Source: Minisyncoccota bacterium (GTDB lineage: Bacteria > Patescibacteriota > Minisyncoccia > Phycocordibacterales > JABMNX01). Taken from it: DNA of 64,000 nucleotides. Positions 11,119 to 44,915 of the stretch are shown here, piece by piece; position 1 is the first letter of the stretch; each line of letters starts with the position of its first letter. The notes under the pieces were generated by a model that made no database searches, was not told where the DNA came from, and worked only from the letters and a program-made list of their open reading frames with translations. The DNA is taken from assembly GCA_040876885.1 (NCBI GenBank), contig JBBDOU010000008.1:42986-106985 (forward strand). Reading direction: 5' to 3'. Position numbers and translations under genes: made by a program.

Positions 11119-11416
11119 ATATACGACTCTCCTGCTTGCAAAATCACTCTCACTGCAATTGCAAAATCATACCATAAAAACTAAATACTACTAGCGTTCC
11201 GCCTCAAATTATAAAAAGCTCGTCAACGTATGTGCTGACGAGCTTCCTGTTTATTATTTCTGATTATTGCTTATTCTTTACTGCGCATATAATTAAAAAT
11301 ATAATACATAAGTTTAAAAATACTAATTCCATCTCTCCTCCTTTTTCCAAGTGTATATGTTCCCCTCTGCTCTTATATAAGTATGCAACCTACTGATTAG
11401 TTACATATGTGTCTTA

Positions 11417-11450
11417 TAAAGGACATATTGTATACACAAAATGTCCTTTA
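11417..11450. repeat. Inverted half-sites TAAAGGACAT-N14-ATGTCCTTTA (same half-site as the palindromes at 15841-15901)
   Basis: Exact 10-nt half-sites in everted orientation, adjacent to the yraN terminator. Confidence 0.5.
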
Positions 11451-11459
11451 TAAAAATAC

Positions 11460-11494
11460 CCTCTCTTTGGCGGTCCGACCGCCAAAGAGAGGGT
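11460..11494 (-). terminator. Terminator of the HD-yraN operon
   Basis: Perfect palindrome ccctctctttggcggtc/gaccgccaaagagaggg followed by a T-rich run on the minus strand. Confidence 0.7.
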
Positions 11495-11495
11495 A

Positions 11496-11903: not shown

Positions 11904-12494
11904 CTAATCCTGTTCCACGTGAAACATATCTTTATGTTCCTCTAAAATTAGAAGTAACTCCTTATAATACGCCTCTATTTCAGGTGAAACAGCTATCTTA
12001 GTGGTTTTCCCGTCAATAAGCATTTGGAGTGTCACTTTATGTTTTTTCCAGTTTCTCCCCTTATCGAGGTATACATTAATTATTGGAAGTAACTTGTCGA
12101 GTGCATACACAAATCTGCCCTCATTATCAATTTGATTCTCATAATCTTCTATAGTTTCATGAAAATCAGGGAATTCTGGAAACTCTTTGTTTAGCCGGAT
12201 AGCTGATTGCTTTTCGCGTTCCTTTTTTTCGATATTATCAGACTCAGAGCGGTAAAACCACGTATCTCCTGCGTAAACCTCAACAAAGTCATGAACAAGA
12301 GCGTATTTGATAATAAGATCCTTGTTTAACGTGTACTTCCCTTCAGAAAGTATGTACCAAGCGGTCATAGCAAGTTGGTAACTGTGCTCGGCATCGTTTT
12401 CATTTCTATCCAATCCAGTAGCATAAATCAAGCGTTCTACATCCCTAAATTTATTTATAAGTGTTACGAATTTAAAAATCGAGTCAATGTTCAT
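11904..12494 (-). CDS. HD-domain phosphohydrolase (YfbR-like 5'-deoxynucleotidase family)
   Basis: HD motif context AEHSYQLAM...LVHDFVEVYAGD; 196 aa. Confidence 0.75.
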   Translation of the reverse strand: MNIDSIFKFVTLINKFRDVERLIYATGLDRNENDAEHSYQLAMTAWYILSEGKYTLNKDLIIKYALVHDFVEVYAGDTWFYRSESDNIEKKEREKQSAIRLNKEFPEFPDFHETIEDYENQIDNEGRFVYALDKLLPIINVYLDKGRNWKKHKVTLQMLIDGKTTKIAVSPEIEAYYKELLLILEEHKDMFHVEQD

Positions 12495-12582
12495 ACTTTT
12501 AAGTATACATCAAAAATTAAGAAAAAAGTCTCAGTGTTACACATGAAACGTGTGATATAAAGTATAAACACATCAATATACT

Positions 12583-12596
12583 GTTTCACGTGAAAC
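12583..12596. promoter_or_regulatory. Perfect 14-bp palindrome GTTTCACGTGAAAC upstream of the HD gene; two further copies of CACGTGAAAC inside the operon
   Basis: Also ccacgtgaaac at 11925 and tcacgtgaaac at 11699. Confidence 0.4.
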
Positions 12597-12796
12597 ACTT
12601 GTTAGTGGAAAAATGATGTCTTTAAAATAACCATGTTTACAGCCATATTTTATAAAAGACAGTATTTTCATGTCCTTTTAATCCACACTATACACAGAGT
12701 TATCCCCAAAAAACAGTAAAAATGGCTTATTTTCTAGGCCTATTTAGGACAAATAAAGGACAGGTATTAAAGATATTCGTCTTGTAGTCAATAAAA

Positions 12797-13007: not shown

Positions 13008-13292
13008 CGCCAGGATTCGAACCTTACAGATTCAGTACAGGTTGGCGATATTTTTACAAAATATCTGACAACCTTTTCGAATCCTCTTAGTCGCTACAAA
13101 CAAAATCACCCAATGTTCTCACATCGGGTTCATTTGTTTGTTGTGCGCCTACCAGGATTCGAACCTTACAGATTCAGTACAGGTTGGCGATATTTTTACA
13201 AAATATCTGACAACCTTTTCGAATCCTCTTAGTCGCTACAAACAAAATCACCCAATGTTCTCACATCGGGTTCATTTGTTTGTTGTGCGCCT
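13008..13292. repeat. 142-bp tandem duplication (two units) each carrying the 3' half of tRNA-Arg (T-loop to discriminator) plus 119 bp of downstream spacer
   Basis: caggattcga recurs at 13011, 13153 and 13295 (period 142); units are identical and run directly into the intact tRNA-Arg; the most distal copy (13008-13022) diverges after CCTGG. Confidence 0.85.
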
Positions 13293-13357
13293 ACCAGGAT
13301 TCGAACCCAGAATAACGGTTCCGAAGACCGTTGTGATATCCATTTCACCATAGGCGC
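13286..13357 (-). tRNA. tRNA-Arg (anticodon TCG)
   Basis: Reverse complement GCGCCTATGGTGAAATGGATATCACAACGGTCTTCGGAACCGTTATTCTGGGTTCGAATCCTGGTAGGCGCA; perfect acceptor stem; anticodon loop CTTCGGA. Confidence 0.85.
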
Positions 13358-15535: not shown

Positions 15536-15564
15536 ATTTTAGCATAAAAAGGTGTGCGAGTCAA
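15536..15564 (-). promoter_or_regulatory. Candidate promoter for the NUDIX gene (TTGACT-N17-TAAAAT on the minus strand)
   Basis: Read on the minus strand, about 50 nt upstream of the start codon. Confidence 0.4.
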
Positions 15565-15840
15565 GTTTCAGTATATAAAATAAAGCCGCTTTAGTGCGGG
15601 TTTCGGTATTAGGAGATTGGGCAAAAAATATCCGAAGGGTGCGTTAAAGCGACTTTGTCTACAAACTATCTCAGTAAAAGAACTGTCTTAAGAGTCAACA
15701 TACCCGATAATTCCAATACGCCGAAGCGTTATAATGTTAGTGTAAAAGGGATTGTTGTATTCCTCTCAAGGTGCCTCAGACTAAAATAAGTCTGTGAAAC
15801 TCTCTGAAAGATCTAAGAACGAACTTCTGAGTATTAGTAT

Positions 15841-15901
15841 ATGTCCTTTAGAAAAAGAGTAAAGGACATGGGTGTGGATAAATGTCCTTTATAAAGGACA
15901 T
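15841..15901. repeat. Two tandem copies of the palindromic element ATGTCCTTTA/TAAAGGACAT, each followed by GGGTG
   Basis: 15841-15869 is an inverted repeat with a 9-nt spacer; 15882-15901 is a perfect 20-bp palindrome; the same half-sites occur at 11417-11450. Confidence 0.7.
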
Positions 15902-15910
15902 GGGTGTTTT

Positions 15911-16367: not shown

Positions 16368-17558
16368 ATGAACCATAGAATAAAGAACATGTTGTTGCCG
16401 TTTCTCCTTATCGCACTAATCCCAATCCTTATCTGGGGGTACGGGTGGTATCAGGGAAAGGTGTCGCCAAGTGAAGCAGACATGTCTGAAGTTATAGTGG
16501 GCGAAGCGGTTGGATATTTTGCTGGTGGGTGTTTCTGGTGTACTGAAAGTGATTTTGAAAAACTATCGGGGGTAACCGACGTTGTCTCTGGATACATGGG
16601 AGGGGATAGTGAGCATCCAAGCTACGTGCAAGTTGCAGGTGGAGAGAGTGGTCATCGAGAAGTGGTGAAGGTGACGTATAATCCAAACGAAGTGAGTTAT
16701 CGAAGGCTCGTCCTCGATCTCTTAAAACACACCGATCCAACTGACGAAGGTGGCTCGTTCTACGACCGAGGACATCAATACACGTCTGCGGTGTACTACC
16801 AAACGGAAGAAGAGAAGGCTATCGCGGAAGCAGTCCTCACGGAGATCGACACACTTGATGTGTATGAAAAACCTACTGTAACGAGTGTTGAACCTGCAGG
16901 AACATTCTGGGTGGCAGAAGACTACCACCAGGACTACTACAAGAAGAATCCTCGACAATACCAATACTACCGGACCGGTTCAGGGCGAGATGCATTTATA
17001 CAATCAGTGTGGGGGGACGGCATGCATGATGCGTTATTTATAGAGGAGATAATGAACGAATTAAATATAGGTAACAAAGGTAGTGCGGGAACGGATACTA
17101 TAAAGAATTCCTGGATAAATTTTGAGAAGCCAAGTGACGCAGTGCTCAAAAGCACCCTTACTGAACTTCAGTATTATGTAACACAAAAAGAGGGGACCGA
17201 GACTCCTTTTAAAAATGAGTACTGGGACAACCACGAGGAAGGTATTTATGTGGATGTCGTTTCAGGAGAACCTCTTTTTTCTTCAACTGATAAATTTGAT
17301 TCAGGTACAGGGTGGCCAAGCTTCTTAAAACCAATTGACTATAGCTTTGTGACCGAGCATAAAGATTACAAACTTATTATTCCACGTACGGAGATACGCA
17401 GTAAGATTGCGAATTCTCACCTTGGGCACATTATCCTTGATGGACCAATTGAGAACGATGGAATCCGCTACTGTATGAACTCTGCAGCACTTCGTTTCGT
17501 ACCAAAAAAAGACCTCAAAGCAGAAGGTCTTGGTGAGTATGCGAGCCTGTTTAAATAA
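16368..17558 (+). CDS. msrAB: Peptide methionine sulfoxide reductase MsrA-MsrB fusion with N-terminal membrane anchor
   Basis: MsrA active site GGCFWCTE; MsrB zinc/catalytic region ([10 protein letters not shown]...[11 protein letters not shown]); start taken at MNHRIKN, which precedes the TM helix. Confidence 0.88.
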
Positions 17559-17588
17559 CCACCTCACCGCCAGCTTCTTTCCACTGCA
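17508..17588. repeat. 81-bp direct repeat, copy 1 (3' end of msrAB plus truncated 3' end of the rhodanese gene)
   Basis: Matches 18151..18231 with 2 mismatches. Confidence 0.9.
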
Positions 17589-17624
17589 CAATATCTTACT
17601 CCAGTGGAAGGACTCAAGCTTTTC

Positions 17625-18158
17625 TTATTTTTGCACAAAAATAAAATCTTCGTCACCTTTCCAAAAATCATCTAGATGCTTATGGTCTCCAACGAGCCAA
17701 ATAAAATTATCACCTCCATGCACTACTCGGAACTGACTCTCGTGATTTTCTGAGTCAAATTGAGATTCCATTCCAATTTGTAATGATTCTAATCTTGGTT
17801 GATGTAAATATTGAATTCTTAACTGAGGACCAACCTCTAAAGGACATATTTCTAGCCCAGCTTCAGTAGCCTTTTTATATATATCTTTTCTATAAGCTCC
17901 ATTAGAGAACCCTAAACCTGAAGGAGTGATCCTAACTAAATCTACTTTCTTTTCGGTTTTGGACATCGTGAAAGATTCACTATGTAAAACATCCTCCGCC
18001 CAGCTACCTATCCTAAATCCTTTCTCTTTAATAGCCCTCTTTAGTTCCTCCACGTTTTTATACGTACCAATGTTAATAGTCTTCCAAACTTGAAATCTTT
18101 TCATGTCTTTAGTATACCAAAGCTTTAAAAGTACCATGCTGAGGTATAAAAAAGACAT
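17625..18158 (-). CDS. Orphan protein of unknown function carried on the insertion between the 81-bp repeats
   Basis: ORF lies entirely between the repeat copies; first ATG is inside repeat copy 2 and an alternative start is MKRFQV (18104); no recognisable motifs. Confidence 0.5.
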   Translation of the reverse strand: MSFLYLSMVLLKLWYTKDMKRFQVWKTINIGTYKNVEELKRAIKEKGFRIGSWAEDVLHSESFTMSKTEKKVDLVRITPSGLGFSNGAYRKDIYKKATEAGLEICPLEVGPQLRIQYLHQPRLESLQIGMESQFDSENHESQFRVVHGGDNFIWLVGDHKHLDDFWKGDEDFIFVQK

Positions 18159-18231
18159 CAAAGCAGAAGGTCTTGGTGAGTATGTGAGCCTGTTTAAATA
18201 ACCACCTCACCGCCAGCTTCTTTCCACTGCA
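18151..18231. repeat. 81-bp direct repeat, copy 2 (pseudo 3' end of msrAB plus the functional 3' end of the rhodanese gene)
   Basis: aaagacatcaaagcagaaggtcttggtgagtatgtgagcctgtttaaataaccacctcaccgccagcttctttccactgca. Confidence 0.9.
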
Positions 18232-18496
18232 TGATACCGTGCGCGTTCTCGACGTGAGTAAAGCCTGCTTCTTCTAAGATTTCCTTAGCTCTTCCTGCGC
18301 GTCCTCCAGCATTACATGCGGTATATATTTTCATGTCTTTAGGTATGTTTGGTAATTCACCGTTTTCAAACCGTTCGAACTCAAACCGTGTGGCGAGCTT
18401 CGCGTGTCCTGTGTCCCACTCTTCGTCTCTTCTTAAATCAAGAAATACCGCCTCTCCAGATTCAACTTCTTTTGTTATTTTTTCTATATCTATCAT
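18194..18496 (-). CDS. Rhodanese-like single-domain sulfurtransferase
   Basis: 100 aa; active-site loop YTACNAGGRAGRA. Confidence 0.75.
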   Translation of the reverse strand: MIDIEKITKEVESGEAVFLDLRRDEEWDTGHAKLATRFEFERFENGELPNIPKDMKIYTACNAGGRAGRAKEILEEAGFTHVENAHGIMQWKEAGGEVVI

Positions 18497-30678: not shown

Positions 30679-30715
30679 ACTAAAAAGTATACCTTCTAAA
30701 TGGTATACTCACCAC

Positions 30716-31453
30716 ATGCATCTTCAGATTAGGCAAATGGGTACGCTTGCAATACTACTTGCGCTCTTTATAGCGGTAACAATTTATTTATTTCCAAGAG
30801 AAGACTCGCCACAAAGCACACAAGGCACCCTAAAAGGTATTTCAGTCTCTAACGCAAAAAAAACAGGTACTCAAACGGGGTATACTTCTCTTTCGTCGAC
30901 TGAGGGAGGTGTGCTCCATACGGGAGGTACGTCTATTTTCAATAAAACAACCCTGCAAGAATTTTTAAATACAAACACAGATGAGCGTACTGCTACAATC
31001 ACCGGAACGGACTCGGGCGAAGAAGAAGTACTGAGCGCATTAAAAGACTATGGGAATAGCGCTGGTGCTATTATAAAAAGTCACCTAAGCGAGAGTCGTG
31101 ACGAGGCAGGTGTACTCGACAAGTTTATAACAACTCCAAAAAATATCGAAGCACAGAACGACTTTAAAGCGCTTCTCAATGACTACCGTGCAGTTGGTCA
31201 CGAACTTAACGCACTTGTACCGCCTACAGTACTCGACATGCACCACAAAAAATTTGCCGACGTCTATATACATATAGGGGACTCGATGGAGCAACTTTTA
31301 TACAGTGCTATCAGTAGTGAAGACGCAGACACATACAACGAAAATATTACCTTATATATTGATGCGTATGTACACGTTGCAGAAACCTTACGTGTGTACG
31401 GGGTGACATTTAACGCAGACGAACCCGGGTCCCTATTCACACTTCCGTTCTAG
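30716..31453 (+). CDS. Membrane-anchored protein, unknown function (first gene of the T4SS-like cluster)
   Basis: N-terminal TM helix, Ser/Thr/Gly-rich linker, globular C-terminal domain. Confidence 0.55.
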   Translation: MHLQIRQMGTLAILLALFIAVTIYLFPREDSPQSTQGTLKGISVSNAKKTGTQTGYTSLSSTEGGVLHTGGTSIFNKTTLQEFLNTNTDERTATITGTDSGEEEVLSALKDYGNSAGAIIKSHLSESRDEAGVLDKFITTPKNIEAQNDFKALLNDYRAVGHELNALVPPTVLDMHHKKFADVYIHIGDSMEQLLYSAISSEDADTYNENITLYIDAYVHVAETLRVYGVTFNADEPGSLFTLPF

Positions 31454-31480
31454 GAATGTACGGCTAAACACTGCTATACT

Positions 31481-32398
31481 GTGGTTATGAACGGGCGTTT
31501 CTTAAAGAAAAACGTTGTACTTGTAGCTGTTGTTACTGGTGCACTACTTATCAGTGCCTCTTTTGTATTAGTAGCGCTAAAACACAAAGGAGCAGTGACG
31601 ACAAAGGGAGTAGCAGTAAATAAAAATCTTGAGCAAATAGTTACCCAGACGGTTTCTGTAGATTCAGACAATGATGGGCTTAAAGACTGGGAGGAAATTC
31701 TTTTTGGGACGGACCCGCAAAACCCAGACTCAGACAATGACGGGATTCTAGACGGACAAGAAGAAGATATTGCACAAACGCCAGGGTCTATAGACAGAGA
31801 GAAAGTAGAAGCGCTTGCACATACTGATAAACTCGCCTTCCAGCTTTTTGAGGGATATATTGACTTGAAACAACGGCGCTATTTAGGAACAAATATTGAA
31901 GAAAATTTTGTCGCTGGACTTGTTGAAGACAGTCTTCCTGAAATTTCTTACACCCAATACTCCTCGAAAGATTTTACAATAGATACAAAGGCCACACCAA
32001 GTGAAAAGGAACGAGTACGTACCTACCGGTCAGCACTTAATGTTGCCTGGAGCCCTTTATTCCTTGTAAAAGAAGACGAGCTCATTACATTTACCCGAAT
32101 CGTAGAGGATGGTGATAAGAAAGGAATAGCGAAACTACAATTTGCAAAAGAAAAGTACGAAGAAGCAATCAAAAACATGCTTCGTGTTTCTGTACCGAGC
32201 GATGCAGTCACACTACACACAGATATACTCAATGGATTTAGTTTTTTTATTGGAGTTCTTGATACAATGATACAAGTAGAAAATGATCCCTTATCTGCAC
32301 TTGTTGCAGTTGAAGGATACGCCGAAGGGGAGGGGCGCATACGGGCATCAATTGAACGCTTCAAGACTTACTTGCTACTAAAAGGAATAACAAAATAA
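31481..32398 (+). CDS. Membrane-anchored protein with thrombospondin-type-3-like Ca-binding repeats
   Basis: N-terminal TM helix; DSDNDGLKDWEE...DPQNPDSDNDGILDGQEED. Confidence 0.55.
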   Translation: MVMNGRFLKKNVVLVAVVTGALLISASFVLVALKHKGAVTTKGVAVNKNLEQIVTQTVSVDSDNDGLKDWEEILFGTDPQNPDSDNDGILDGQEEDIAQTPGSIDREKVEALAHTDKLAFQLFEGYIDLKQRRYLGTNIEENFVAGLVEDSLPEISYTQYSSKDFTIDTKATPSEKERVRTYRSALNVAWSPLFLVKEDELITFTRIVEDGDKKGIAKLQFAKEKYEEAIKNMLRVSVPSDAVTLHTDILNGFSFFIGVLDTMIQVENDPLSALVAVEGYAEGEGRIRASIERFKTYLLLKGITK

Positions 32399-34047
32399 TG
32401 AATACCATTTCTAAAAACATACTCACCCTACTCATAGTGTTTGCGCTTTGTGTTCCTTTTGGTTTATCCTCGACTACCTATACCGCTCACGCTCAATCAA
32501 CGAGTGGGGCAGATGCTGGAGGTAACCCTGATCTTGGAGGGGACGACACTGCTGATGATGCTGCTATATCTTCCGCAGGAGGCATCCTCTCCTGTCTTGC
32601 TGGTGGATATATAGATGGTTTCTTAGGGGCTGGTGCGAGTGCAATTGGACTAGTAGTTCCTGTTAACGATTCTCTGGTAACCTCAAACACCGGAACAATA
32701 AAAAACAAAGATTGTGTTCTTGATGGACTGACGACTGTTGTGCGTGATGTATTAATATCAAGCATGACTCGAAGTATTGTAAATTGGATTAATGGCGGCT
32801 TTGACGGAAACCCAGCATTTATAACCGACCTCGAAGGATTCTTATTAGATGTAGGGGATCAGGTCGTAGGAACATACATCGAAGGTTCAGAGCTTGCCTT
32901 CCTTTGTAGTCCCTTTCAATTAGATGTGCGTATTAGCCTTGCGCTTGACTACTACACCAACGCCCGCGACCGTGTCTCATGTACCTTAACAGGAGTAATC
33001 GAAAACCTTAACGATTCTTTTGATGACCTCTCATCAAAAAACTCATGGGACTCATGGCTTGAGCTTTCGGTAAACCCACACAACAATCCGTACGGATCAT
33101 TTTTGGCTTCAAGACAAGCGATGCGTCAATCCATCGCCTCTGCGCAAAACAACCAACAAAGCATCCTTAATTGGGGTAGTGGATTTCGTTCTTATGAAGT
33201 CTGCGATACTGCTGGAGTACAAGACCCTAATGACAGTGCGAACATCTCCGTGGGGAACTTTAATTGTAGAATTGCGACTCCTGGAGTTGTTATTAACGAA
33301 CAACTCAGCCAAACCTTAGGTTCAGGGTTCAGGCAACTTGAGCTTGCTGATGAAATAAATGAGATTATTGGGGCGCTTCTTGGACAACTCTCAAAACAAG
33401 TTCTCGGCGGTTCTCGATCAGGTCTATCTGGGTTAAGTAGTAGTCGTTATGGGCGACCTTCTTATGTTAATCAGCTCGTGAGCGCTTCTAACGAAAAATC
33501 TGAATCAGAATTCCGTAGCTACGGAACAAGTGTTGTTGACGGGTCAATTAACACAGAAAGTCAACTTATCACGAGTAAAAAAGTGTCACTCGCTCGACTT
33601 AATGCATCAGAAACATTATTAAAATCTCTTGCCGTATGTTATGAAGGGAAACTCTCAACCACACAAAACCCAACACTTACTCCCGAAGAAAGAACTACCG
33701 CAACCGAGGGTATGAACACTGCAAGCTCAACTATTGCTGCGAGCATAACACCACTACAAAAACTTATCACGGATGATATAGCACACGCTGAAAATAATAT
33801 CTCCAAGCTTCTTGTTATTAAAGAGAATCTAAAAAATACAACCTCCCAAGCTGGCGTCGACCGAGTCCTCGCAAACGAACTTGACCCGCTCGTTAAAGAT
33901 AAAATCATCCACTCCCAACCCGATTTTGTTATTGCAACACAACAAAAAGAAGACATCAGTAGTATCACGGACGCAATGAACACGGCAACAAATGCAAACC
34001 TCACGACGTGTTCTGCATTTCCTGTACGGGGGACTAATCAAAACTAA
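32398..34047 (+). CDS. Large secreted protein (549 aa), unknown function; candidate surface or pilus-tip component
   Basis: Signal peptide ending AHAQ; Gly/Asp-rich region; no TM helix; start overlaps the stop of the previous gene. Confidence 0.55.
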   Translation: MNTISKNILTLLIVFALCVPFGLSSTTYTAHAQSTSGADAGGNPDLGGDDTADDAAISSAGGILSCLAGGYIDGFLGAGASAIGLVVPVNDSLVTSNTGTIKNKDCVLDGLTTVVRDVLISSMTRSIVNWINGGFDGNPAFITDLEGFLLDVGDQVVGTYIEGSELAFLCSPFQLDVRISLALDYYTNARDRVSCTLTGVIENLNDSFDDLSSKNSWDSWLELSVNPHNNPYGSFLASRQAMRQSIASAQNNQQSILNWGSGFRSYEVCDTAGVQDPNDSANISVGNFNCRIATPGVVINEQLSQTLGSGFRQLELADEINEIIGALLGQLSKQVLGGSRSGLSGLSSSRYGRPSYVNQLVSASNEKSESEFRSYGTSVVDGSINTESQLITSKKVSLARLNASETLLKSLAVCYEGKLSTTQNPTLTPEERTTATEGMNTASSTIAASITPLQKLITDDIAHAENNISKLLVIKENLKNTTSQAGVDRVLANELDPLVKDKIIHSQPDFVIATQQKEDISSITDAMNTATNANLTTCSAFPVRGTNQN

Positions 34048-34053
34048 CATTTC

Positions 34054-36165
34054 ATGAAACGTATTATCTTTATCAGCCTTATACTCACACTACTCTACGT
34101 ACCAGTATCATTTAACCTTGATACTACGAATAACTTTGAACCTTTAATAGCAAATGCTAACCATAGTGACGAGCAACACCCGGGTATTGTAGGAGAGGAT
34201 ACTTCGCCACAATCAGGATCTCTGACAACAGATAGTAGCGGAGTTACACGAGAGGCATTTAGCCCTATCTCTAATGCATTTAACGAGTTTATGGAGAATG
34301 TTGCGCTTCTCCCAATCTTTATTTCAGGTTTTTTTGTGTATGTGGCAGGGGCACTTTTTGACGTATCAATACTAGAGACAGTTAGTAGACTTGGGGTGCA
34401 TTTCAGCGCTGTGGATGGAATTAATATTGCATGGGGGACACTTCGAGACTTAGCGAACATACTCTTTATATTTGGACTTCTGACAATTGCGATATCCACA
34501 ATCCTGGGCCTATCTGGTTTTGGGTATAAGAAACTACTCGCTCGGCTTATTATTGTCGCACTATTAATAAACTTCAGTCTCTTCTTCACCAAATTTGTGA
34601 TAGACGCTTCAAATATTTTTGCGCTTCAATTCTATCAACAACTTTCTGTACCAGACGCCGATGGTACTCGGAGCATCTCAAATATTTTTAGACACGCACT
34701 TGGACTCGACACACTGTGGAGCACGGAAACTGTACTTAATAGACTTAACCAACTTAACTATAACTCTAGTGGAGGATTCGGCTTAATGTTTCTCTACTCA
34801 ATATTTACTTCAATATTCTTATTTATCACCGCATTTGTATTTATGTTTGGTGCAATTTTGCTTATTGTTCGTGCTGTTGGATTTATACTACTTGCTATCC
34901 TTTCTCCCGTTGCTTTCGCGGCGTACGTTCTACCCACAACTCAGAAGTGGACCGACATGTGGTGGAAAAAACTCTGGGAGTACGCTATTTTTGCGCCAGC
35001 ATTTCTCTTGATGTTGTGGATTACCGCATCCATTATTCCAAGTATTACCGCGACTTTCGCACCAAACGGAGGGGGGTTGCTTGAGGCTATTTCATCAAAT
35101 CCTGAGGAACGCATCGGGAGTGTGAGTATGATACTTAATTTTATTATTTTGATATCACTACTCATTGCTTCAATTGTTATTTCCAATAAACTTTCTATTG
35201 CGGGTTCAGAAAAACTTACCAAAATGGGTAAGAGCCTTGGCAAATTTGGTGCAGGAAAAGCACTCGCACTTCCTTTTGGCCTCACAGCAGCACTTGGCAG
35301 GAATCTTCCGGGACGCGGTCTTAGAGCATTAAGTAACTCACAAGGACTAAAGGATGTTGCTTCTGGTAAACGAAACTTTAAACCATTAGCGGGCGATGGG
35401 GTTTTTGCTAGAGGTGCAAACATAGCAGCTAATAAGATAGCCCAGAAGAGCGCTGAGTATGGGCTAAAAGGAGCACGGGTTGGTGCCGATGCAAACTTTG
35501 ATGCACGCGCCTTCCCTGGAGCTGGAGCTGTTATAAAAAGCACTGGATTAAACCTAGGGAAGCCAAGAAAAGGTGGGTATGAGACTACAATTAAAAAACA
35601 AGTTGAGGACAGGAAGAAATTTGGAGAGTCATTAGGTAACGACTCAGTAACTCAAGATGCGTTAATAAAACCTCTAGAAAAAGAACAAGGAGAAATCAAA
35701 GGACGCAAAAAAGAACAGGAAGGAGAGAAGACCGAAGATCAAAATAGGATAAAAAATCTTAGTCGACAAAAACAAGCGCTCGTACGGGATGGAAAAGAAT
35801 ATTCAAACGAAATGAACGCGCTTGATGTAGAGCTAAACAAAGCAGAATCAAAACTTGCAGACACAGAGAACACGCTGAAGAGAATTGGCGATGAGGAAAA
35901 GAAAATCAAAGAACAGCTTGACGCAGTAAATAATATCGGAAAAGAAAGAGCTAAAAGTTTTGCTCAGATGTTGGCTTCAGAAAAGACTGTTGATACGCTT
36001 TGGTTTAAAGTTCCTAGAAAAAATAAAGAAGCAGGGATTGCAATGATGAAGGGGAAAAGTGACGAAGATAAACTAATAGAAGGCCTTACAAAAAAAATGA
36101 AAAAAGAAAAAAAAGAGAGCGATACAGATGATGACGGGGAATCTTCTGAAAAGAAAGAGAGCTAA
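34054..36165 (+). CDS. VirB6/TrbL-like polytopic membrane protein with a long charged coiled-coil C-terminal tail
   Basis: Signal/TM N-terminus, about 7 TM helices between residues 90 and 370, then 300 aa of K/E-rich coiled coil; topology and position next to VirB3/VirB4-like genes. Confidence 0.5.
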   Translation: MKRIIFISLILTLLYVPVSFNLDTTNNFEPLIANANHSDEQHPGIVGEDTSPQSGSLTTDSSGVTREAFSPISNAFNEFMENVALLPIFISGFFVYVAGALFDVSILETVSRLGVHFSAVDGINIAWGTLRDLANILFIFGLLTIAISTILGLSGFGYKKLLARLIIVALLINFSLFFTKFVIDASNIFALQFYQQLSVPDADGTRSISNIFRHALGLDTLWSTETVLNRLNQLNYNSSGGFGLMFLYSIFTSIFLFITAFVFMFGAILLIVRAVGFILLAILSPVAFAAYVLPTTQKWTDMWWKKLWEYAIFAPAFLLMLWITASIIPSITATFAPNGGGLLEAISSNPEERIGSVSMILNFIILISLLIASIVISNKLSIAGSEKLTKMGKSLGKFGAGKALALPFGLTAALGRNLPGRGLRALSNSQGLKDVASGKRNFKPLAGDGVFARGANIAANKIAQKSAEYGLKGARVGADANFDARAFPGAGAVIKSTGLNLGKPRKGGYETTIKKQVEDRKKFGESLGNDSVTQDALIKPLEKEQGEIKGRKKEQEGEKTEDQNRIKNLSRQKQALVRDGKEYSNEMNALDVELNKAESKLADTENTLKRIGDEEKKIKEQLDAVNNIGKERAKSFAQMLASEKTVDTLWFKVPRKNKEAGIAMMKGKSDEDKLIEGLTKKMKKEKKESDTDDDGESSEKKES

Positions 36166-36177
36166 ACAAACACTATT

Positions 36178-36645
36178 ATGGAACACCATGCACCCACTAT
36201 TCTAGAAAAACAATTTGATAAGCTTCCGAAGCAATTACAGGCCTTTATCAGTTCTGGAAACCTTACACGTACTTTAGAAGATATCGGCAAGGATCATACT
36301 TTAAGTGACCGAGAACAAACCGGGTTAGAAAACACCTCGCTCATGATTCTTTTAGGACTCGAGCCACTCAGTGAACTTAAAAACCACTTAATGCAAAAAT
36401 ACGCATTGACTGAAGAAAAGGCAGAGAGTGTCTCTGATGATTTCTCTGCAAAAGTAATTACCCCGCTGGAACAAGATTTGCGTAATTTCCTAGAAAATGA
36501 ACGCCAAGAGGAAATATCAAACCCTATGGAAGAGTCGACTGTACAACCATTGTTATCTAAAGACGACACCGACAGAGTACGTGCACTCCTTCGAGAAAAT
36601 GCCAAGACAGTAAGTATTAAAAATATTATTGCTAACATTGAATAA
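36178..36645 (+). CDS. Cytoplasmic protein, unknown function (paralog A)
   Basis: 155 aa; shares a KLPxQLQ...H.L...Q...LEN....LLG.E pattern with the next gene. Confidence 0.5.
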   Translation: MEHHAPTILEKQFDKLPKQLQAFISSGNLTRTLEDIGKDHTLSDREQTGLENTSLMILLGLEPLSELKNHLMQKYALTEEKAESVSDDFSAKVITPLEQDLRNFLENERQEEISNPMEESTVQPLLSKDDTDRVRALLRENAKTVSIKNIIANIE

Positions 36646-36646
36646 T

Positions 36647-37159
36647 ATGAACGACGTAAATATTCACACAACACTCAAGGAGCAGTTTAAAAAACTCCCG
36701 CCAAAACTGCAAGAAGCAATCACATCAACAGAAATTGCTGAAAAACTTCGTGCAATAGCTCAAAAACATAGGCTCCATATAGACCAAGGACAGATACTTG
36801 AAAATGAGACTTATATGGTACTTCTTGGGATAGAGCAGGCGGGGGCATATGAAAAAAATCTACAAAAAGAACTTACTATACCAACTGAAGTCGCACAAAA
36901 GATATACACTGATGTGGCAAAAGACATTTTCTTAGTAATACGCGACACATTAAAAGAGGCGACAACTACCGAGAAGCCAACACAAGTGCCTGATCCTGAG
37001 GCCCAAACTGTACACGCCCAGGAAACAAGTCCATTTACAACAAATACTGACACAGCTCACAATAAACTTGAGTCAGTAGTGAGAAAACAAAGTAAAGATT
37101 TTGAGATTTCTCCCAGAAAAACATACACAACAGACCCCTACCGAGAATCGATAGAGTAA
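36647..37159 (+). CDS. Cytoplasmic protein, unknown function (paralog B)
   Basis: Start set at MNDVNIH immediately after the upstream stop; shares the pattern described for paralog A. Confidence 0.5.
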   Translation: MNDVNIHTTLKEQFKKLPPKLQEAITSTEIAEKLRAIAQKHRLHIDQGQILENETYMVLLGIEQAGAYEKNLQKELTIPTEVAQKIYTDVAKDIFLVIRDTLKEATTTEKPTQVPDPEAQTVHAQETSPFTTNTDTAHNKLESVVRKQSKDFEISPRKTYTTDPYRESIE

Positions 37160-37222
37160 AAAGTACTAAGAAAAAGTGTATAGCGCACTTAAATAGGGAG
37201 ACAAATACAGTATAATAAAGAC

Positions 37223-37648
37223 ATGCGCTACCAAGTGCCGCAGTTTATTGATGTAGAAGATAGAATATTTGGCCCACTAACCATCAAGCAATTCGTCTAC
37301 TTGGCTGGAGGTGCTGGTATTTCTTTTGTTTTATGGAGGTTATTTCCTATCATTGTTGCACTTATCATCATTGCTCCGGTAGTTGCGCTCTCTTTAGGGC
37401 TTGCTTTTTATAAAGTAAATGACCGCCCACTAATCACCACAATAGAATATGCGCTTGGGTACCTCTTTGGGAAAAAACTCTACTTATGGGAGACGAGTAA
37501 AAAACTTCCGAAAGAAGCGACAGCAAAAGTAACCAAAGAAAACGAGCTCATCTCAGTACCTAAGCTCTCAGACAGTAAGTTAAAAGACCTCTCATGGAGT
37601 CTCGATATAAAAGAAAATATACACTCTTCAGAAAATAATACTATTTAA
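37223..37648 (+). CDS. VirB3/PrgI-like small membrane protein
   Basis: 141 aa; VPQFIDVEDRIFGPLTIKQFVYLAGGAG followed by a TM helix; directly precedes the VirB4 region. Confidence 0.45.
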   Translation: MRYQVPQFIDVEDRIFGPLTIKQFVYLAGGAGISFVLWRLFPIIVALIIIAPVVALSLGLAFYKVNDRPLITTIEYALGYLFGKKLYLWETSKKLPKEATAKVTKENELISVPKLSDSKLKDLSWSLDIKENIHSSENNTI

Positions 37649-37650
37649 CT

Positions 37651-38310
37651 ATGGCTCAAGCAGACACAAAAGCTTCACAAGATTTTGTTCCCGTTCAGGA
37701 AATACGGGATGGTATTGTGGTGTTGAAAGACGGCTCACTTCGGGGAATTCTGCTTGCATCATCCATAAACTTCGCACTTAAGTCTACCGACGAACAAAAT
37801 GCCGTTGTTTCTCAATTTCAAAATCTTTTGAACTCACTAGAATTTTCAATACAAATATCTATACAGTCACGAGAACTCGACATCAGACCGTACGTGGCGC
37901 TTTTAGAAAAACAGCTCGAAAACAACACTAATGATCTTATGCAAATCCAAATACGAGAGTACATAGAGTTCGTAAAGAATTTTGTTGATGTCTCTAGTAT
38001 CATGACTAAAAATTTCTTTATTGTTGTTCCATACCAAAAACCCGCACTACAGTCGATGGGCACTAACCCTGTTTCAAAATTATTTGGGAAGACAAACACA
38101 GCTCAAGAAGACTCAGCAAATTTTGAAGAGGCTGTTTCACAACTCGAACAAAGAATGTCAGTCGTCGAGCAAGGACTTGCTCGCTCAGGAGTACGAACCC
38201 TTCGATTAGGTACCGAAGAAGTGATAGAGCTTTACTATAAGATTTTCAATCCTGGAGAGCAGGAAAAACCAATTAATCTTAACCAAGAGAGTATAATGCA
38301 ACAACAGTAA
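37651..38310 (+). CDS. Soluble T4SS-associated protein, unknown function
   Basis: 219 aa, no TM helix; translationally coupled between the VirB3-like and VirB4 genes (1-nt gaps). Confidence 0.4.
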   Translation: MAQADTKASQDFVPVQEIRDGIVVLKDGSLRGILLASSINFALKSTDEQNAVVSQFQNLLNSLEFSIQISIQSRELDIRPYVALLEKQLENNTNDLMQIQIREYIEFVKNFVDVSSIMTKNFFIVVPYQKPALQSMGTNPVSKLFGKTNTAQEDSANFEEAVSQLEQRMSVVEQGLARSGVRTLRLGTEEVIELYYKIFNPGEQEKPINLNQESIMQQQ

Positions 38311-38311
38311 T

Positions 38312-40141
38312 ATGGCACTTCTAGACTTTTTCAGAAAAAATAAAAGAGAAGTAAGTAGTGACATCGTTCCTATTCTTCCTGAGGAAATTTATCGAGCAGG
38401 AGCGCTTGAACTTAAAGACATTATCGCTCCCTCGGCGCTAAAGATAACTCCAAAAGAGCTCCACCTAGGGGACAAAATTGCACGTACATTCTTTGTTATA
38501 TCCTACCCAAGATTCTTGAACAGTAGCTGGTTTTCTCCTGTTATTAACCTCGATAAAGTATTCGACATATCTATCACCGTACATCCCATAGATACTGCGG
38601 GAGTCCTCCGTAAATTTCAGAAAAAAGTTGCAGAAATCCAAAGCCAGATAATAAGCAGAGAAGAGAAAGGACTCGTGCGTGACCCAAAGCTTGATACCGC
38701 CCACCAAGACCTTGAACAACTTCGTGAACAGCTCCAGCAAGCACAGGAGAAGATATTTGATGTGGGTCTTTATATAACAATTTATGGAAACTCAGTAGAG
38801 GAATTAGACAAAACAGAATCAGAAATCAAATCTATGCTCGAGTCGAAACTCATTTACCTTAAACCAGCACTCTTCCAACAAGAGCAAGGATTTCTAAGTG
38901 TCCTTCCCTCAGGAACCGATAAGCTTATGGTCCATTCAAAGCTAAACTCAGCACCTCTTTCAAGTATCTTTCCGTTTGTATCTTTCGACTTAACCTCAGA
39001 CAAAGGAATCCTCTACGGAATAAACCGCCACAACTCAAGTCTGGTACTCTTTGACCGATTCTCTCTTGAAAACTATAACTCAGTAACCTTTGCTAAGTCT
39101 GGTTCTGGTAAGTCATATGCAACAAAACTCGAAATCCTTCGTACGCTTATGTTTGACACGGAAGTCATTGTCATCGACCCTGAGCGAGAATATGAATACA
39201 TGGCAGAAGCAACAGGGGGGAGGCACTTTAATATTTCTTTAAGCTCAGAACACCACATCAATCCATTTGATTTACCGACTCCACGAGAAGATGAAAACCC
39301 TTCAGACATATTGCGCTCAAACATTATCACGCTTGTTGGACTCTTCCGTATTATGCTTGGTGGACTCACTCCAGAAGAAGACGCAATAATTGATAGGGCG
39401 ATAACTGAAACGTACGCACTAAAAGACATCACCGCTCAATCAGACTTTAGCAACGTAGAGCCTCCACTTCTTTCTGATTTTGAAATGGTTCTTGGTGGCA
39501 TGGAAGGAAGTGAGTCTCTTGTACAGCGACTCTCTAAATACACCCGAGGAACATGGTCTGGCTTTATCAACCAACCAACCAACGTTGATATCAATAAAAA
39601 ATTCGTCGTGTTCTCTGTTCGAGACATGGAGGACGATCTTAAGCCAGTTGCAATGTACATTGTGACGCACTTTATATGGAATATGGTCCGAAAAGAACTT
39701 AAAAAGAGGCTCCTTGTCATCGACGAGGCGTGGTGGATGATGAAATCAGAAGACACCGCTTCGTTCCTGTTTAGTATTGCTAAGCGTGGTAGGAAGTACT
39801 ACCTGGGACTTGCTACTATCACGCAGGACGTGAGTGACTTCCTAAGCTCACCCTATGGGCTTCCGATGATCAGCAACTCTTCAATACAGATGCTTATGAA
39901 GCAGTCTCCAACCTCAGCTGACCTGGTACAAGAAACCTTTAAACTTAGTGACGAAGAGAAATATCTCCTCCTTGAGTCTGATGTTGGAGAGGGGATATTC
40001 TTTGCGGGACTTAAACATGTCGCTATTAAGGTTATCGCTTCATACACTGAAGACCAGATTATAACTTCAGACCCATCTCAAGTCCTCGCAATACGGAAAA
40101 ATAAAGAAGTTCTGAGACAACAAAAGGGATCCGCAACGTAA
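38312..40141 (+). CDS. virB4: VirB4/TrbE/ConE-family type IV secretion ATPase
   Basis: N-terminal ...YPRFL... domain, Walker A FAKSGSGKSYATK, Walker B LLVIDEAWWMM, C-terminal IATITQ-type motif region. Confidence 0.85.
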   Translation: MALLDFFRKNKREVSSDIVPILPEEIYRAGALELKDIIAPSALKITPKELHLGDKIARTFFVISYPRFLNSSWFSPVINLDKVFDISITVHPIDTAGVLRKFQKKVAEIQSQIISREEKGLVRDPKLDTAHQDLEQLREQLQQAQEKIFDVGLYITIYGNSVEELDKTESEIKSMLESKLIYLKPALFQQEQGFLSVLPSGTDKLMVHSKLNSAPLSSIFPFVSFDLTSDKGILYGINRHNSSLVLFDRFSLENYNSVTFAKSGSGKSYATKLEILRTLMFDTEVIVIDPEREYEYMAEATGGRHFNISLSSEHHINPFDLPTPREDENPSDILRSNIITLVGLFRIMLGGLTPEEDAIIDRAITETYALKDITAQSDFSNVEPPLLSDFEMVLGGMEGSESLVQRLSKYTRGTWSGFINQPTNVDINKKFVVFSVRDMEDDLKPVAMYIVTHFIWNMVRKELKKRLLVIDEAWWMMKSEDTASFLFSIAKRGRKYYLGLATITQDVSDFLSSPYGLPMISNSSIQMLMKQSPTSADLVQETFKLSDEEKYLLLESDVGEGIFFAGLKHVAIKVIASYTEDQIITSDPSQVLAIRKNKEVLRQQKGSAT

Positions 40142-40153
40142 ACACATTTTAGT

Positions 40154-40543
40154 ATGTCTGACACCAAAGGCTTCAACCCAAGAATATCTAATCTCCTAGC
40201 AGTAGTACTTATCACTATTGCTATTTTCGTTGATATCACACAAGCCTTACTGAGCGTTATTGGATTTTTAATCTTGGGAGTTGCATTAAACACACTAATA
40301 TCTGCATGCATGACCATGTTTTTTGGTATAGTATTTATTATGAACGGTGTTTCTTTTTTCAGTTCACGACGACTTGCTGTAACAGGTACAGCGCTCCTTA
40401 TTGAGGCGATACCGCTCCTTAACAATCTTCCTACCTGGACCATGTACACAGTAGTCGCGGTAAAGAACGTACGAAAAGAAGACAAGGAGCGGTGGCTAGA
40501 AAAAAACAGCAGCGCGTACAAAAAAGGAAGCTTCACTCAATAA
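40154..40543 (+). CDS. Small membrane protein (3-4 TM), unknown function
   Basis: 129 aa, hydrophobic, within the cluster. Confidence 0.5.
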   Translation: MSDTKGFNPRISNLLAVVLITIAIFVDITQALLSVIGFLILGVALNTLISACMTMFFGIVFIMNGVSFFSSRRLAVTGTALLIEAIPLLNNLPTWTMYTVVAVKNVRKEDKERWLEKNSSAYKKGSFTQ

Positions 40544-40569
40544 AATAAAACTACAAACGCAATCTAACT

Positions 40570-41598: not shown

Positions 41599-41601
41599 TA
41601 C

Positions 41602-42111: not shown

Positions 42112-42152
42112 AGAATCTTTACGGAGACCTTTTTAATACAGTAAACAAGATT

Positions 42153-44603: not shown

Positions 44604-44909
44604 TTATATTTTTTTTATGAGATAACTAATTTCTTCACGCAACTCTTTTTTTGATATGTCTTGTGCGCCTTTTTTTGTATAAAAAATAGCTTCTATAGGA
44701 TAAGGAGCTACTTCTTCAAATAAACCCCGCACACGTCTTCTCAGGAGGTTTCTCGCGGTAGCGTGTTTTATAGTCTTTTTTGAAATAACGACCCGAACCT
44801 GTGTTTTTTTAACACCGAGCTTCACCGCCCGTAATGAAAGGTGTGGGGAACTAAATAAACCGCCTGATTTCATGACGGTTTTAAAAAATGTCTCTGTTTT
44901 TTCTCTCAT
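44604..44909 (-). CDS. rnpA: Ribonuclease P protein component
   Basis: 101 aa basic protein; RNLLRRRVRGLF motif; immediately downstream of rpmH. Confidence 0.85.
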   Translation of the reverse strand: MREKTETFFKTVMKSGGLFSSPHLSLRAVKLGVKKTQVRVVISKKTIKHATARNLLRRRVRGLFEEVAPYPIEAIFYTKKGAQDISKKELREEISYLIKKI

Positions 44910-44915
44910 GAGGCT

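What the first reader, a model, noticed from the sequence alone, without database searches (positions are those of the whole stretch)
15841..15901. Recurring 20-bp palindrome ATGTCCTTTA/TAAAGGACAT at three sites
Two tandem copies sit downstream of a small membrane-protein gene in a 350-bp ORF-free region (15560-15910). One is a perfect 20-bp palindrome and the other is split by 9 nt. Each is followed by GGGTG. A third copy with the half-sites everted around a 14-nt spacer sits at 11417-11450, beside the yraN terminator. Exact reuse of a 10-nt half-site at three loci suggests a dimeric DNA-binding-protein operator or a REP-like miniature repeat. It is not a canonical terminator, because no T-run abuts the stem.
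Basis: seen in the sequence. Interest (0 to 1): 0.5.

Follow-up and report, generated by a model that had tools for sequence, protein, structure and literature searches.

The report
Promoter operator boxes beside DnaA box
The repeated 10-base word is real: in many ultra-small Patescibacteria (CPR) it is a protein-binding-type motif that sits with a DnaA box on the promoter of an unannotated structured RNA gene next to the tRNA CCA-adding enzyme gene, and the protein that reads it is unknown.

Summary
The core TGTCCTTTA occurs 8 times in the window against 0.76 expected, all between 11.4 and 17.8 kb.

The window is a Patescibacteria MAG contig. The same word recurs in many other Patescibacteria, always in one ~5 kb domain around the cca gene, so it is not a dispersed REP/MITE-type repeat.

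The split palindrome (15841-15869) is a sigma-70-type promoter on the minus strand. One half-site carries the -35 (TTTACT) and the other abuts the -10 (TATACT). A perfect DnaA box (15873-15881) lies 4 nt upstream, and the perfect palindrome (15882-15901) lies just beyond it.

The promoter points into the "ORF-free" 350 bp. I read that stretch as a ~255-nt structured non-coding RNA gene with a boxA-like motif and its own terminator. No Rfam family matches it.

In most lineages the second promoter site is a direct repeat, not an inverted one. The recognised unit is therefore the half-site, not a strict dyad.

GC3 skew places oriC at dnaA, 30 kb away. The binding protein is not identified, and neither regulation nor transcription has been shown experimentally.

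The parts
15841..15869 (.). Split palindrome A (ATGTCCTTTA-N9-TAAAGGACAT). It coincides with the core promoter of the minus-strand RNA gene.
   Evidence: Promoter geometry. Footprint alignment.
15858..15863 (-). -35 hexamer TTTACT (consensus TTTACA in other genomes), formed by the 3' end of one half-site plus two spacer bases.
   Evidence: TTTACT-16-TATACT.: -35 is TTTACA in 36/42, TTTACG in 4 and TTTACT in 2.
15836..15841 (-). -10 hexamer TATACT, directly abutting GGACA of the other half-site.
   Evidence: the hexamer after GGACA is TAnnnT in 42/42 oriented loci. One search finds the same in 33 loci chosen by cca homology.
15873..15881 (-). Perfect DnaA box TTATCCACA, 4 nt upstream of the -35 half-site.
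   Evidence: The fixed 3-4 nt spacing to TGTCCTTTAC is conserved in 33 of 53 promoter-like modules (about 1% expected by chance).
15882..15901 (.). Perfect 20-bp palindrome B (N0), the upstream auxiliary site. Close relatives carry only the single half-site TAAA(G/A)GACAT here.
   Evidence: N0 palindromes occur in the same position in other lineages.
15575..15829 (-). Predicted non-coding RNA gene of about 255 nt. The TSS is inferred about 7 nt after the -10. It ends in a long hairpin (15582-15656) plus a T run.
   Evidence: No ORF. MFE z-score -3.1. Homologues in L065, L124 and L125 show 9 compensatory pairs out of 33. No Rfam family matches.
15674..15685 (-). boxA-like motif CAGTTCTTTTAC inside the RNA. 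A weaker copy, GTTCGTTCTTAG, lies at 15813-15824.
   Evidence: [GT][CT]TCTTT occurs in the first 150 nt of 34/43 predicted transcripts, against about 2 in shuffles.
11407..11453 (.). Site C: everted half-sites forming an 18-nt-arm hairpin (11414-11431/11436-11453), plus a degenerate 20-mer at 11407-11426. It lies directly 3' of the yraN terminator hairpin (11457-11495).
   Evidence: An equivalent everted pair follows yraN in the relative L125.
12653..12763 (+). Cluster 2: TAAAAGACAG-N7-ATGTCCTTT fused to the DnaA-like boxes TAATCCACA (12679) and TTATCCCCA (12700), then TAAAGGACAG (12754). It lies 55 nt from a parS site.
   Evidence: The same arrangement occurs in L125, L112, L101, L013, L041, L064 and L050.
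12582..12597 (.). parS consensus site TGTTTCACGTGAAACA. A second copy, TGTTCCACGTGAAACA, lies at 11911-11926. This is context, not part of the motif.
   Evidence: I24, D11. parS-like sites recur beside the clusters in other loci. The identification as parS rests on my knowledge of the consensus.
17838..17847 (-). Lone half-site inside a 178-aa ORF. Probably chance.
   Evidence: 0.76 copies expected by chance in the window.

Best explanation
The 9-10 bp word (core TGTCCTTTA) is the recognition unit of a sequence-specific DNA-binding protein of Patescibacteria that has not been identified. Its sites are concentrated in one conserved chromosomal neighbourhood: yraN, parS, tRNAs, cca, a non-coding RNA gene and xth. 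In this genome that neighbourhood lies about 30 kb from oriC.

At 15836-15901 the sites are built into a composite control region on the minus strand. The order is palindrome B, then a DnaA box, then 4 nt, then a half-site carrying the -35, then a spacer filled by the inverted half-site, then the -10.

This promoter drives a ~255-nt structured, boxA-containing, terminator-ended non-coding RNA that occupies the 'ORF-free' region.

Inferred mechanism: the protein, bound to the two promoter half-sites, occupies the -35 and the spacer and so controls RNA polymerase access. Repression is the simplest reading. Activation in the manner of PhoB or MerR is also possible. DnaA bound about 45-53 nt upstream of the inferred start, together with the upstream site(s), would modulate this by cooperative contacts or looping.

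Shown: the motif, its enrichment and confinement, the promoter geometry, the DnaA-box linkage, and the conserved structured RNA. Inferred: actual binding, the sign of regulation, and the transcription start.
For: Enrichment and confinement:
- 8 exact cores in the window against 0.76 expected.
- 210 exact cores in 727 kb of 80 loci chosen only by cca homology, against 7-9 expected.
- These sit 0-1 kb after the cca stop (1.84 per kb), inside cca, and up to 2.5 kb upstream (densest at 1-2.5 kb), with almost none elsewhere.

Genome scan:
- It returned 119 or more loci, about 80 of them Patescibacteria.
- Spacers peak at 0, 9 and 10 nt.

Promoter geometry, oriented independently by the DnaA box:
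- TAnnnT directly after GGACA in 42/42 loci.
- TTTACA as the -35 in 36/42.
- Spacing of 16-17 nt.
- The same module occurs in 33/80 unbiased loci, and in 32/33 it lies opposite to cca, 270-960 nt after its stop.

Footprint: among the window, L124, L125, L065 and L027 (L027 matches L125 almost base for base) the boxes are invariant while the spacers and flanks differ.

Flexible orientation: direct repeats in about 27 loci and inverted repeats in 4.

The RNA:
- No ORF.
- Terminators on the same strand.
- Compensatory pairs: 14 of 63 and 9 of 33.
- boxA-like motif in 34/43 predicted transcripts.
Against: - No binding protein was identified. No transcription-factor gene is conserved in the neighbourhood, and none is obvious in the window.
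- There are no expression data, so the promoter, the start site and the RNA are predictions.
- In 14 of 46 perfect-type palindromes the flanks extend the complementarity by 4-13 non-conserved bp. This points to selection on a hairpin or cruciform, not only on a protein site.
- The full module was found in only 33 of 80 cca loci, so it is common but not universal.
- The RNAs of different lineages are positionally equivalent but were not shown to be homologous. A model of the window RNA's 3' domain finds only close relatives.
- The motif-selected set is biased by the exact-match search.
Confidence: 0.6

Rival explanations
1. The palindromes act mainly as nucleic-acid structures. They would be RNA hairpins at the 3' end of the upstream gene (terminator, insulator or mRNA stabiliser), or DNA cruciforms, and not protein sites.
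For: - They lie directly after the stop codon of the MerT-like gene.
- The hairpins are moderately stable: -8.8, -10.4 and -20.1 kcal/mol, with z-scores of -4 to -8.
- B followed by GGGTGTTTTT is listed as terminator-like on the plus strand.
- Flanks of perfect palindromes in other genomes covary to extend the stem in 14/46 cases, against 0.18 expected.
- Site C follows the yraN terminator.
Against: - Structure alone does not explain why the same 9-10 nt are kept across classes of Patescibacteria.
- It does not explain why most lineages use direct repeats or single copies that cannot form a hairpin.
- It does not explain the fixed register with the -35, the -10 and the DnaA box.
- There is no U tract on the minus strand, and the stems are A+T-rich.
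Confidence: 0.15
2. The boxes, together with the DnaA boxes and the nearby parS sites, form a replication-control or chromosome-organisation locus. This would be a DnaA-titrating or DnaA-reactivating site like datA/DARS, or a DnaA-box cluster outside oriC. Promoter control would be secondary.
For: - DnaA boxes are an integral part of both clusters, at fixed spacing.
- parS consensus sites lie 55-100 nt away.
- The sites form a multi-site ~5 kb domain that extends inside the cca ORF, where the word is written in two reading frames.
- The locus is about 30 kb from dnaA/oriC.
Against: - This is purely architectural inference.
- DnaA boxes are not enriched in the window as a whole.
- Only one or two boxes occur per module.
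- The precise register with a promoter argues that transcription control is at least one real function.
Confidence: 0.2
3. The module is (part of) the chromosomal replication origin.
For: A perfect DnaA box lies between the palindromes. Relatives carry tandem boxes in 10-bp phase. DnaA-box clusters flank cca on both sides, and parS sites are nearby.
Against: - The cumulative G-C minimum is at 45-47 kb.
- GC3 skew of genes changes sign there regardless of gene strand, exactly at rpmH-rnpA-yidC | dnaA-dnaN.
- There is no skew switch at 12-16 kb.
- No A+T-rich unwinding element or DnaA-trio array follows the boxes (read from the sequence).
Confidence: 0.03
4. A REP/BIME- or MITE-like mobile miniature repeat, or a DNA-uptake sequence.
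For: A short word reused as inverted pairs downstream of genes. Superficially similar arrays exist in Cytobacillus and Bacillus genomes.
Against: - All window copies lie within 6.4 kb.
- In 80 unbiased loci the copies are confined to the cca domain.
- There is one locus per Patescibacteria genome in the scan, in conserved synteny.
- No RAYT or transposase gene was seen.
- Viral contigs gave only 3 hits.
Confidence: 0.02

Closest known systems
Response-regulator boxes that overlap or replace the -35 (PhoB pho box CTGTCAT-N4-CTGTCAT; WalR TGTWAH-N5-TGTWAH; MtrA boxes at the mycobacterial oriC and dnaA promoter). Consensus sequences are recalled from my own knowledge.
   Same: TGT-initiated 6-9 bp units repeated about once per helical turn (12-bp period in most lineages). 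They sit over the -35 and spacer, a few bp upstream of the -10. MtrA is a precedent for such a regulator acting beside DnaA boxes.
   Different: The sequence differs. The period is 12 bp, not 11 bp. This genome uses inverted units, whereas this family typically uses direct repeats. No response-regulator gene was found in the window or neighbourhood. Binding was not tested.
CIRCE/HrcA operator (TTAGCACTC-N9-GAGTGCTAA), from my own knowledge
   Same: A 9-10 bp inverted repeat with a 9-nt spacer. It is conserved almost letter for letter across very distant lineages, overlaps a promoter region, and can form a hairpin in RNA.
   Different: The sequence differs. It controls a non-coding RNA gene, not chaperone operons. 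Orientation and spacing are variable (0, 9, 10 nt, direct, everted). It is coupled to a DnaA box.
DnaA-box clusters outside oriC with accessory-protein sites (E. coli datA and DARS1/2 with IHF/Fis sites; B. subtilis DnaA-box clusters), from my own knowledge
   Same: Consensus DnaA boxes tens of kb from oriC, flanked by sites for a second protein, and conserved in position.
   Different: Only 1-3 boxes. They are embedded in a promoter. No evidence of an effect on DnaA. The accessory motif is new.
REP/BIME elements and MITEs
   Same: Short palindromic units downstream of genes, sometimes in pairs.
   Different: Not dispersed. One syntenic locus per genome. No associated transposase. Fixed register with promoter elements.
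rRNA-operon-type boxA antitermination leaders (for the RNA downstream), from my own knowledge
   Same: A GYTCTTT(A/G)A motif lies near the 5' end of an untranslated transcript.
   Different: No rRNA or tRNA follows. The unit is a 250-450 nt RNA that ends at its own terminator.

Membership tests
Sigma-70-type promoter | -35-like and -10-like hexamers 16-18 bp apart, conserved in orthologous positions | tested here: met
   The window has TTTACT-16-TATACT. TAnnnT in 42/42 and TTTAC(A/G/T) in 42/42 loci oriented by the DnaA box. Also 33 loci chosen by cca homology.
Sigma-70-type promoter | Transcript starting about 7 nt downstream of the -10 | not testable with these tools
   No transcriptome data. 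Indirect support only: same-strand terminators and a boxA-like motif.
Transcription-factor operator | Conserved sequence footprint overlapping promoter elements while the flanks diverge | tested here: met
   Alignment A4. Consensus profile.
Transcription-factor operator | Identified cognate DNA-binding protein | tested here: inconclusive
   Neighbourhood clustering found no conserved regulator. Window annotation shows only HU, YebC and NusA.
Strictly dyad-symmetric (homodimer) operator | Fixed inverted-repeat geometry in all members | tested here: not met
   Spacers of 0, 9 and 10 nt, everted pairs, and mostly direct repeats with a 12-bp period.
REP/BIME or MITE | Many copies dispersed over the genome | tested here: not met
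REP/BIME or MITE | Associated RAYT or transposase, or target-site duplications | tested here: not met
   None in the annotated 64 kb plus flanks.
Intrinsic terminator | G+C-rich stem directly followed by a U tract on the sense strand of the upstream gene | tested here: not met
   On the minus strand no T run follows A or B. The stems have 3 G-C pairs. On the plus strand B is followed by GGGTG and then a T run.
Replication origin (oriC) | GC-skew polarity switch at the site | tested here: not met
   The switch is at 45-47 kb, beside dnaA.
Replication origin (oriC) | Cluster of DnaA boxes next to an A+T-rich unwinding element or DnaA-trios | tested here: not met
   One perfect box at site A/B and two imperfect boxes at cluster 2. 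No trio array or A+T-rich element was seen.
datA/DARS-like DnaA control locus | Conserved DnaA boxes outside oriC with sites for an accessory protein | tested here: met
   (architecture only).
datA/DARS-like DnaA control locus | Changes the nucleotide state or availability of DnaA | not testable with these tools
   Needs experiments.
DNA uptake sequence | Genome-wide over-representation (about 1 per kb) | tested here: not met
CIRCE | TTAGCACTC-N9-GAGTGCTAA upstream of groE/dnaK | tested here: not met
   Different sequence and different downstream unit.
Known RNA family (for the 15575-15829 RNA) | Match to an Rfam covariance model | tested here: not met
   No match at gathering score or at E<=10 in the window, nor in 17 related loci.

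The most novel reading that the evidence does not exclude
The boxes, the DnaA boxes and the parS sites around cca form a Patescibacteria-specific, origin-proximal nucleoprotein hub. An unknown box-binding protein and DnaA would jointly control a previously undescribed boxA-containing structured RNA. The hub would also feed back on replication initiation or chromosome segregation, as a functional analogue of datA/DARS in organisms whose cell-cycle control is unknown.
Probability: 0.2. Interest if true: 0.8.

Novelty: new variant of a known kind. Interest (0 to 1): 0.62.

Why it matters
Patescibacteria make up a large share of bacterial diversity, yet almost nothing is known about their gene regulation, their non-coding RNAs or their cell-cycle control.

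This module offers three concrete handles:
- A near-invariant 9-10 bp DNA word that can be used as bait to find its binding protein.
- A DnaA box in fixed register with a promoter. This suggests a link between replication status and transcription.
- An unannotated structured RNA gene, conserved in position and carrying an rRNA-style boxA signal.

All three could be tested in any cultivable Saccharibacteria strain that proves to carry the module, and in existing metatranscriptomes.

The result also shows that the 'ORF-free' gap is a gene. Automated annotation should mark it as such.

Tried and rejected
- **oriC hypothesis.** The DnaA box and parS sites suggested it. GC3 skew and the cumulative G-C minimum at dnaA reject it.
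- **Window-wide DnaA-box enrichment.** None: 17 hits against 16.6 expected.
- **Rfam.** No family for the RNA in the window or in related loci.
- **Literature.** An exact-sequence search for either half-site found only primers. Searches on Patescibacteria origins, LexA motifs and ncRNAs found nothing describing this motif. The T4SS paper only notes that dnaA lies near the T4SS genes.
- **Regulator gene in the neighbourhood.** All-against-all clustering of 1507 ORFs from 159 loci found none. The only frequent HTH-like family (31 loci) looks like a LAGLIDADG-type homing endonuclease, judged from its sequence motif and not confirmed by a family scan. It is absent from the window.
- **Phage origin.** Only 3 hits in viral contigs.
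- **Covariance model of the RNA's 3' domain.** It finds only close relatives, so homology of the RNAs across lineages is unproven.
- **The 22-aa hydrophobic ORF downstream of site C.** Not conserved.
- **Non-Patescibacteria hits.** Cytobacillus/Bacillus tandem arrays, Paenibacillaceae intercistronic hairpins, and a proteobacterial N19 hairpin in a 5' UTR. Their contexts differ, and I treated them as unrelated families.
- **Resemblances I considered but could not test.** DnaA low-affinity sites, boxA at the DNA level, Xer/dif sites, ParB/Noc sites, WhiA (GACAC), and YraN as the binder.

Full report
**Observation**

The sequence is as described.
- ATGTCCTTTA-N9-TAAAGGACAT lies at 15841-15869.
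- The perfect 20-mer lies at 15882-15901.
- The everted pair lies at 11417-11450.
- The shared GGGTG tail is part of a 16-nt direct repeat.

Additional copies exist:
- a degenerate 20-mer at 11407-11426;
- a cluster at 12653-12763;
- a lone copy at 17838.

The 9-mer core TGTCCTTTA occurs 8 times against 0.76 expected, and no shuffle out of 100 reaches 8. All copies lie between 11.4 and 17.8 kb.

**Source and context**

The window is part of contig JBBDUD010000007.1 of the MAG GCA_040904045.1. Its gene content is typical of Patescibacteria:
- a type IV secretion cluster next to rpmH-rnpA-yidC and dnaA-dnaN;
- ruvABC and type IV pilus genes.

Around the finding, the genes run in this order: yraN and an HD-domain gene (minus), two parS-consensus palindromes, tRNA genes, cca (plus), a NUDIX gene (minus), the 350-bp gap, and a MerT-like membrane protein gene (minus). 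Further on lies xth.

**Distribution elsewhere**

I ran an exact scan of one genome per species for ATGTCCTTTA-N0-20-TAAAGGACAT.
- About 80 are Patescibacteria of many classes.
- Each genome contributed one locus, and spacers peak at 0, 9 and 10 nt.
- In these loci the palindrome lies next to DnaA boxes and between cca and xth, as in the window.

That set is biased by the query. I therefore fetched 80 metagenome loci chosen only by homology to the window's CCA-adding enzyme, at 41-82% identity.
- The exact 9-mer occurs 210 times in 727 kb, against 7-9 expected, and in 59 of 80 loci.
- It is confined to three hot spots: the first kb after the cca stop (1.84 per kb in the first 500 nt), nt 300-600 inside cca, and up to 2.5 kb upstream (densest at 1-2.5 kb).
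- Elsewhere it is practically absent.

The motif is therefore a locus-specific cluster and not a dispersed repeat. Viral contigs hold only three matches.

**Anatomy of the 15.8-15.9 kb site**

I oriented 42 loci by their DnaA box alone.
- The hexamer directly after GGACA is TAnnnT in all 42.
- The last four bases of the other half-site plus two spacer bases read TTTACA in 36, TTTACG in 4 and TTTACT in 2.
- The two hexamers are 17 or 16 bp apart.

The window has TTTACT-16-TATACT on the minus strand. So the split palindrome is a sigma-70-type core promoter. One half-site carries the -35 and the other fills the spacer up to the -10.

A consensus DnaA box ends 3-4 nt upstream of the -35 half-site. 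In the window it is a perfect TTATCCACA at 15873-15881. Further upstream lies either a single inverted half-site or, as in the window, a perfect 20-bp palindrome.

The same module occurs in 33 of the 80 unbiased loci. In 32 of those 33 it lies on the strand opposite to cca, 270-960 nt after its stop.

Among the window and its nearest relatives the boxes are invariant while the spacers and flanks have diverged. Sites C and cluster 2 are also conserved in position in a relative with 81% CCA-enzyme identity.

**The unit is the half-site**

In about 27 of the unbiased modules the second promoter site is a direct repeat (TGTCCTTTAcnnTGTCC, 12-bp period). The inverted arrangement of the window is seen only in four. 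Everted pairs occur at site C and at cluster 2, and single copies occur as well.

A strict homodimer-on-a-dyad model is therefore too narrow. The recognised unit is 9-10 bp, used in several orientations. Some plasmid repressors and some OmpR/PhoB-type regulators use their sites this way (my own knowledge).

**What the promoter drives**

The gap has no minus-strand ORF of 20 aa or more between 15575 and 15830.
- The predicted transcript (about 15829 to 15575) folds better than shuffles, with z = -3.1.
- It ends in a long hairpin plus a T run.
- It has recognisable homologues in L065, L124 and L125/L027, with 9 compensatory pairs out of 33.

In the other lineages the equivalent position holds 250-450 nt non-coding units that end in same-strand terminators. 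One well-sampled family shows 14 of 63 pairs with compensatory changes, plus hairpin-tip insertions.

A boxA-like motif ([GT][CT]TCTTT) lies in the first 150 nt of 34 of 43 predicted transcripts, against about 2 in shuffles and 13 on the opposite strand. This fits an untranslated RNA that is protected from premature termination.

No Rfam family matches, even at permissive thresholds. A covariance model of the window RNA's 3' domain finds only close relatives. The RNAs are thus shown to be positionally equivalent, not homologous.

**Is it the origin?**

No.
- The cumulative G-C curve has its minimum at 45-47 kb.
- The GC3 skew of genes changes sign there irrespective of gene strand.
- That point is exactly at rpmH-rnpA-yidC | dnaA-dnaN.
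- DnaA boxes are not enriched in the window overall.

The module is a DnaA-box-containing site about 30 kb from oriC, near parS sites.

**Structure versus protein site**

As RNA the hairpins are moderately stable: -8.8, -10.4 and -20.1 kcal/mol. They lack a U tract on the strand of the flanking genes.

In other genomes 14 of 46 perfect-type palindromes have flanks that extend the complementarity by 4-13 non-conserved bp, against 0.18 expected. Some selection, or some mechanism favouring a hairpin or cruciform, therefore exists at the upstream site.

This does not explain the letter-perfect conservation of the core. It also does not explain the direct-repeat versions or the register with the promoter. 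I keep it as a secondary, not exclusive, role.

**Mechanism proposed**

An unidentified protein binds the half-sites. At the promoter it covers the -35 and the spacer and so gates RNA polymerase. Repression is the simplest reading, but activator geometries exist. DnaA bound about 45-53 nt upstream of the inferred start, together with the upstream site(s), would add cooperative or looping contacts. This would tie expression of the RNA to DnaA status. These steps are inferred and nothing here demonstrates binding.

The broader domain comprises sites inside cca written in two reading frames, cluster 2 fused to DnaA boxes, and the parS sites. It leaves open a role in replication control or chromosome organisation.

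**Who binds?**

Unknown. No regulator gene is conserved near the locus. The window encodes HU, YebC and NusA but no response regulator. Resemblances to pho, WalR and MtrA boxes and to CIRCE are recalled from knowledge. They are leads only.

**Novelty**

I found no description of this motif or of the RNA in Rfam or in the searchable literature. Promoter-embedded operator boxes are a known kind of element. Three things appear to be new:
- near-invariance of the core across many Patescibacteria lineages;
- a DnaA box in fixed register with the promoter;
- an unannotated boxA-containing RNA as the target.

**Limits**

- The rest of this genome could not be scanned.
- No expression or binding data are available.

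Noticed in passing
window 13010-13293: A perfect 142-nt tandem duplication (13010-13151 and 13152-13293). It contains the 3' end of tRNA-Arg(tcg) and its downstream terminator hairpin, giving partial tRNA copies like those left at integration sites.
   Followed up: no
window 17505-17593 and 18148-18236: 89-nt direct repeats (96% identical) made of the 3' end of msrAB plus downstream sequence. They flank a 178-aa ORF (17625-18161, minus) with no Pfam match. This looks like an insertion with a duplicated target.
   Followed up: partly
window 11911-11926 and 12582-12597: Two palindromes matching the parS consensus (TGTTCCACGTGAAACA and TGTTTCACGTGAAACA), one at the end of the HD gene and one upstream of it. 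parS-like sites recur beside the box clusters in other loci.
   Followed up: partly
window 44900-47000: Probable oriC region: rpmH-rnpA-yidC on the minus strand, dnaA-dnaN on the plus strand, tandem TTATACACA-type boxes at about 45171-45200, low G+C, and the cumulative G-C minimum.
   Followed up: partly
window 30700-43300: A type IV secretion gene cluster (PrgI, TraC/VirB4-like, T4SS pilin) directly beside the dnaA region. This arrangement was reported for Patescibacteria in PMC12102498.
   Followed up: partly
window 11264-11332 (minus): A 22-aa hydrophobic ORF (MELVFLNLCIIFLIICAVKNKQ) with a strong Shine-Dalgarno sequence and its own terminator (11211-11247), downstream of site C. It is not conserved in the fetched loci.
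   Followed up: partly
L150 6375-6424; also L151, L146, L148, L176 (inside cca, nt 300-600): Two or three copies of TAAAGGACA inside the cca coding region, written in two different reading frames (YKGQ and IKDK). In my reading they use the less usual codons AAG and GAC, which would suggest selection at the DNA level. Codon usage was not measured. The window's cca has only a degenerate copy.
   Followed up: partly
L120 4666-5228 (Cytobacillus depressus); also L039, L079, L096: Tandem arrays with a 52-bp period of ATGTCCTTTA-N9-TAAAGGACAT followed by TAGAAT, at several intergenic sites of Bacillaceae genomes. This is the same word in a multi-copy repeat family of unknown nature.
   Followed up: partly
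L025 2860-2960; also L012, L024, L033, L086, L100, L113: In Coxiella, Rickettsia and gammaproteobacterial MAGs a 39-nt hairpin ATGTCCTTTAGG...CCTAAAGGACAT starts within the -10 of a TTGACT-17-TATCAT promoter. It ends just before an ORF starting MFLEYLDKI. This is a different conserved 5'-UTR element.
   Followed up: no
L085 5210-5884, L013 2834-3502 and 29 other loci: A ~224-aa ORF family with an N-terminal HTH-like segment and a LAGLIDADG-like motif (GLYWAEGSK) is inserted near cca and the tRNAs in 31 loci. It is absent from the window.
   Followed up: partly
L008 2566-2604, L032 4604-4643, L094 262-300: In some Patescibacteria two perfect-type palindromes are fused head to tail into 39-40 nt super-palindromes.
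   Followed up: no
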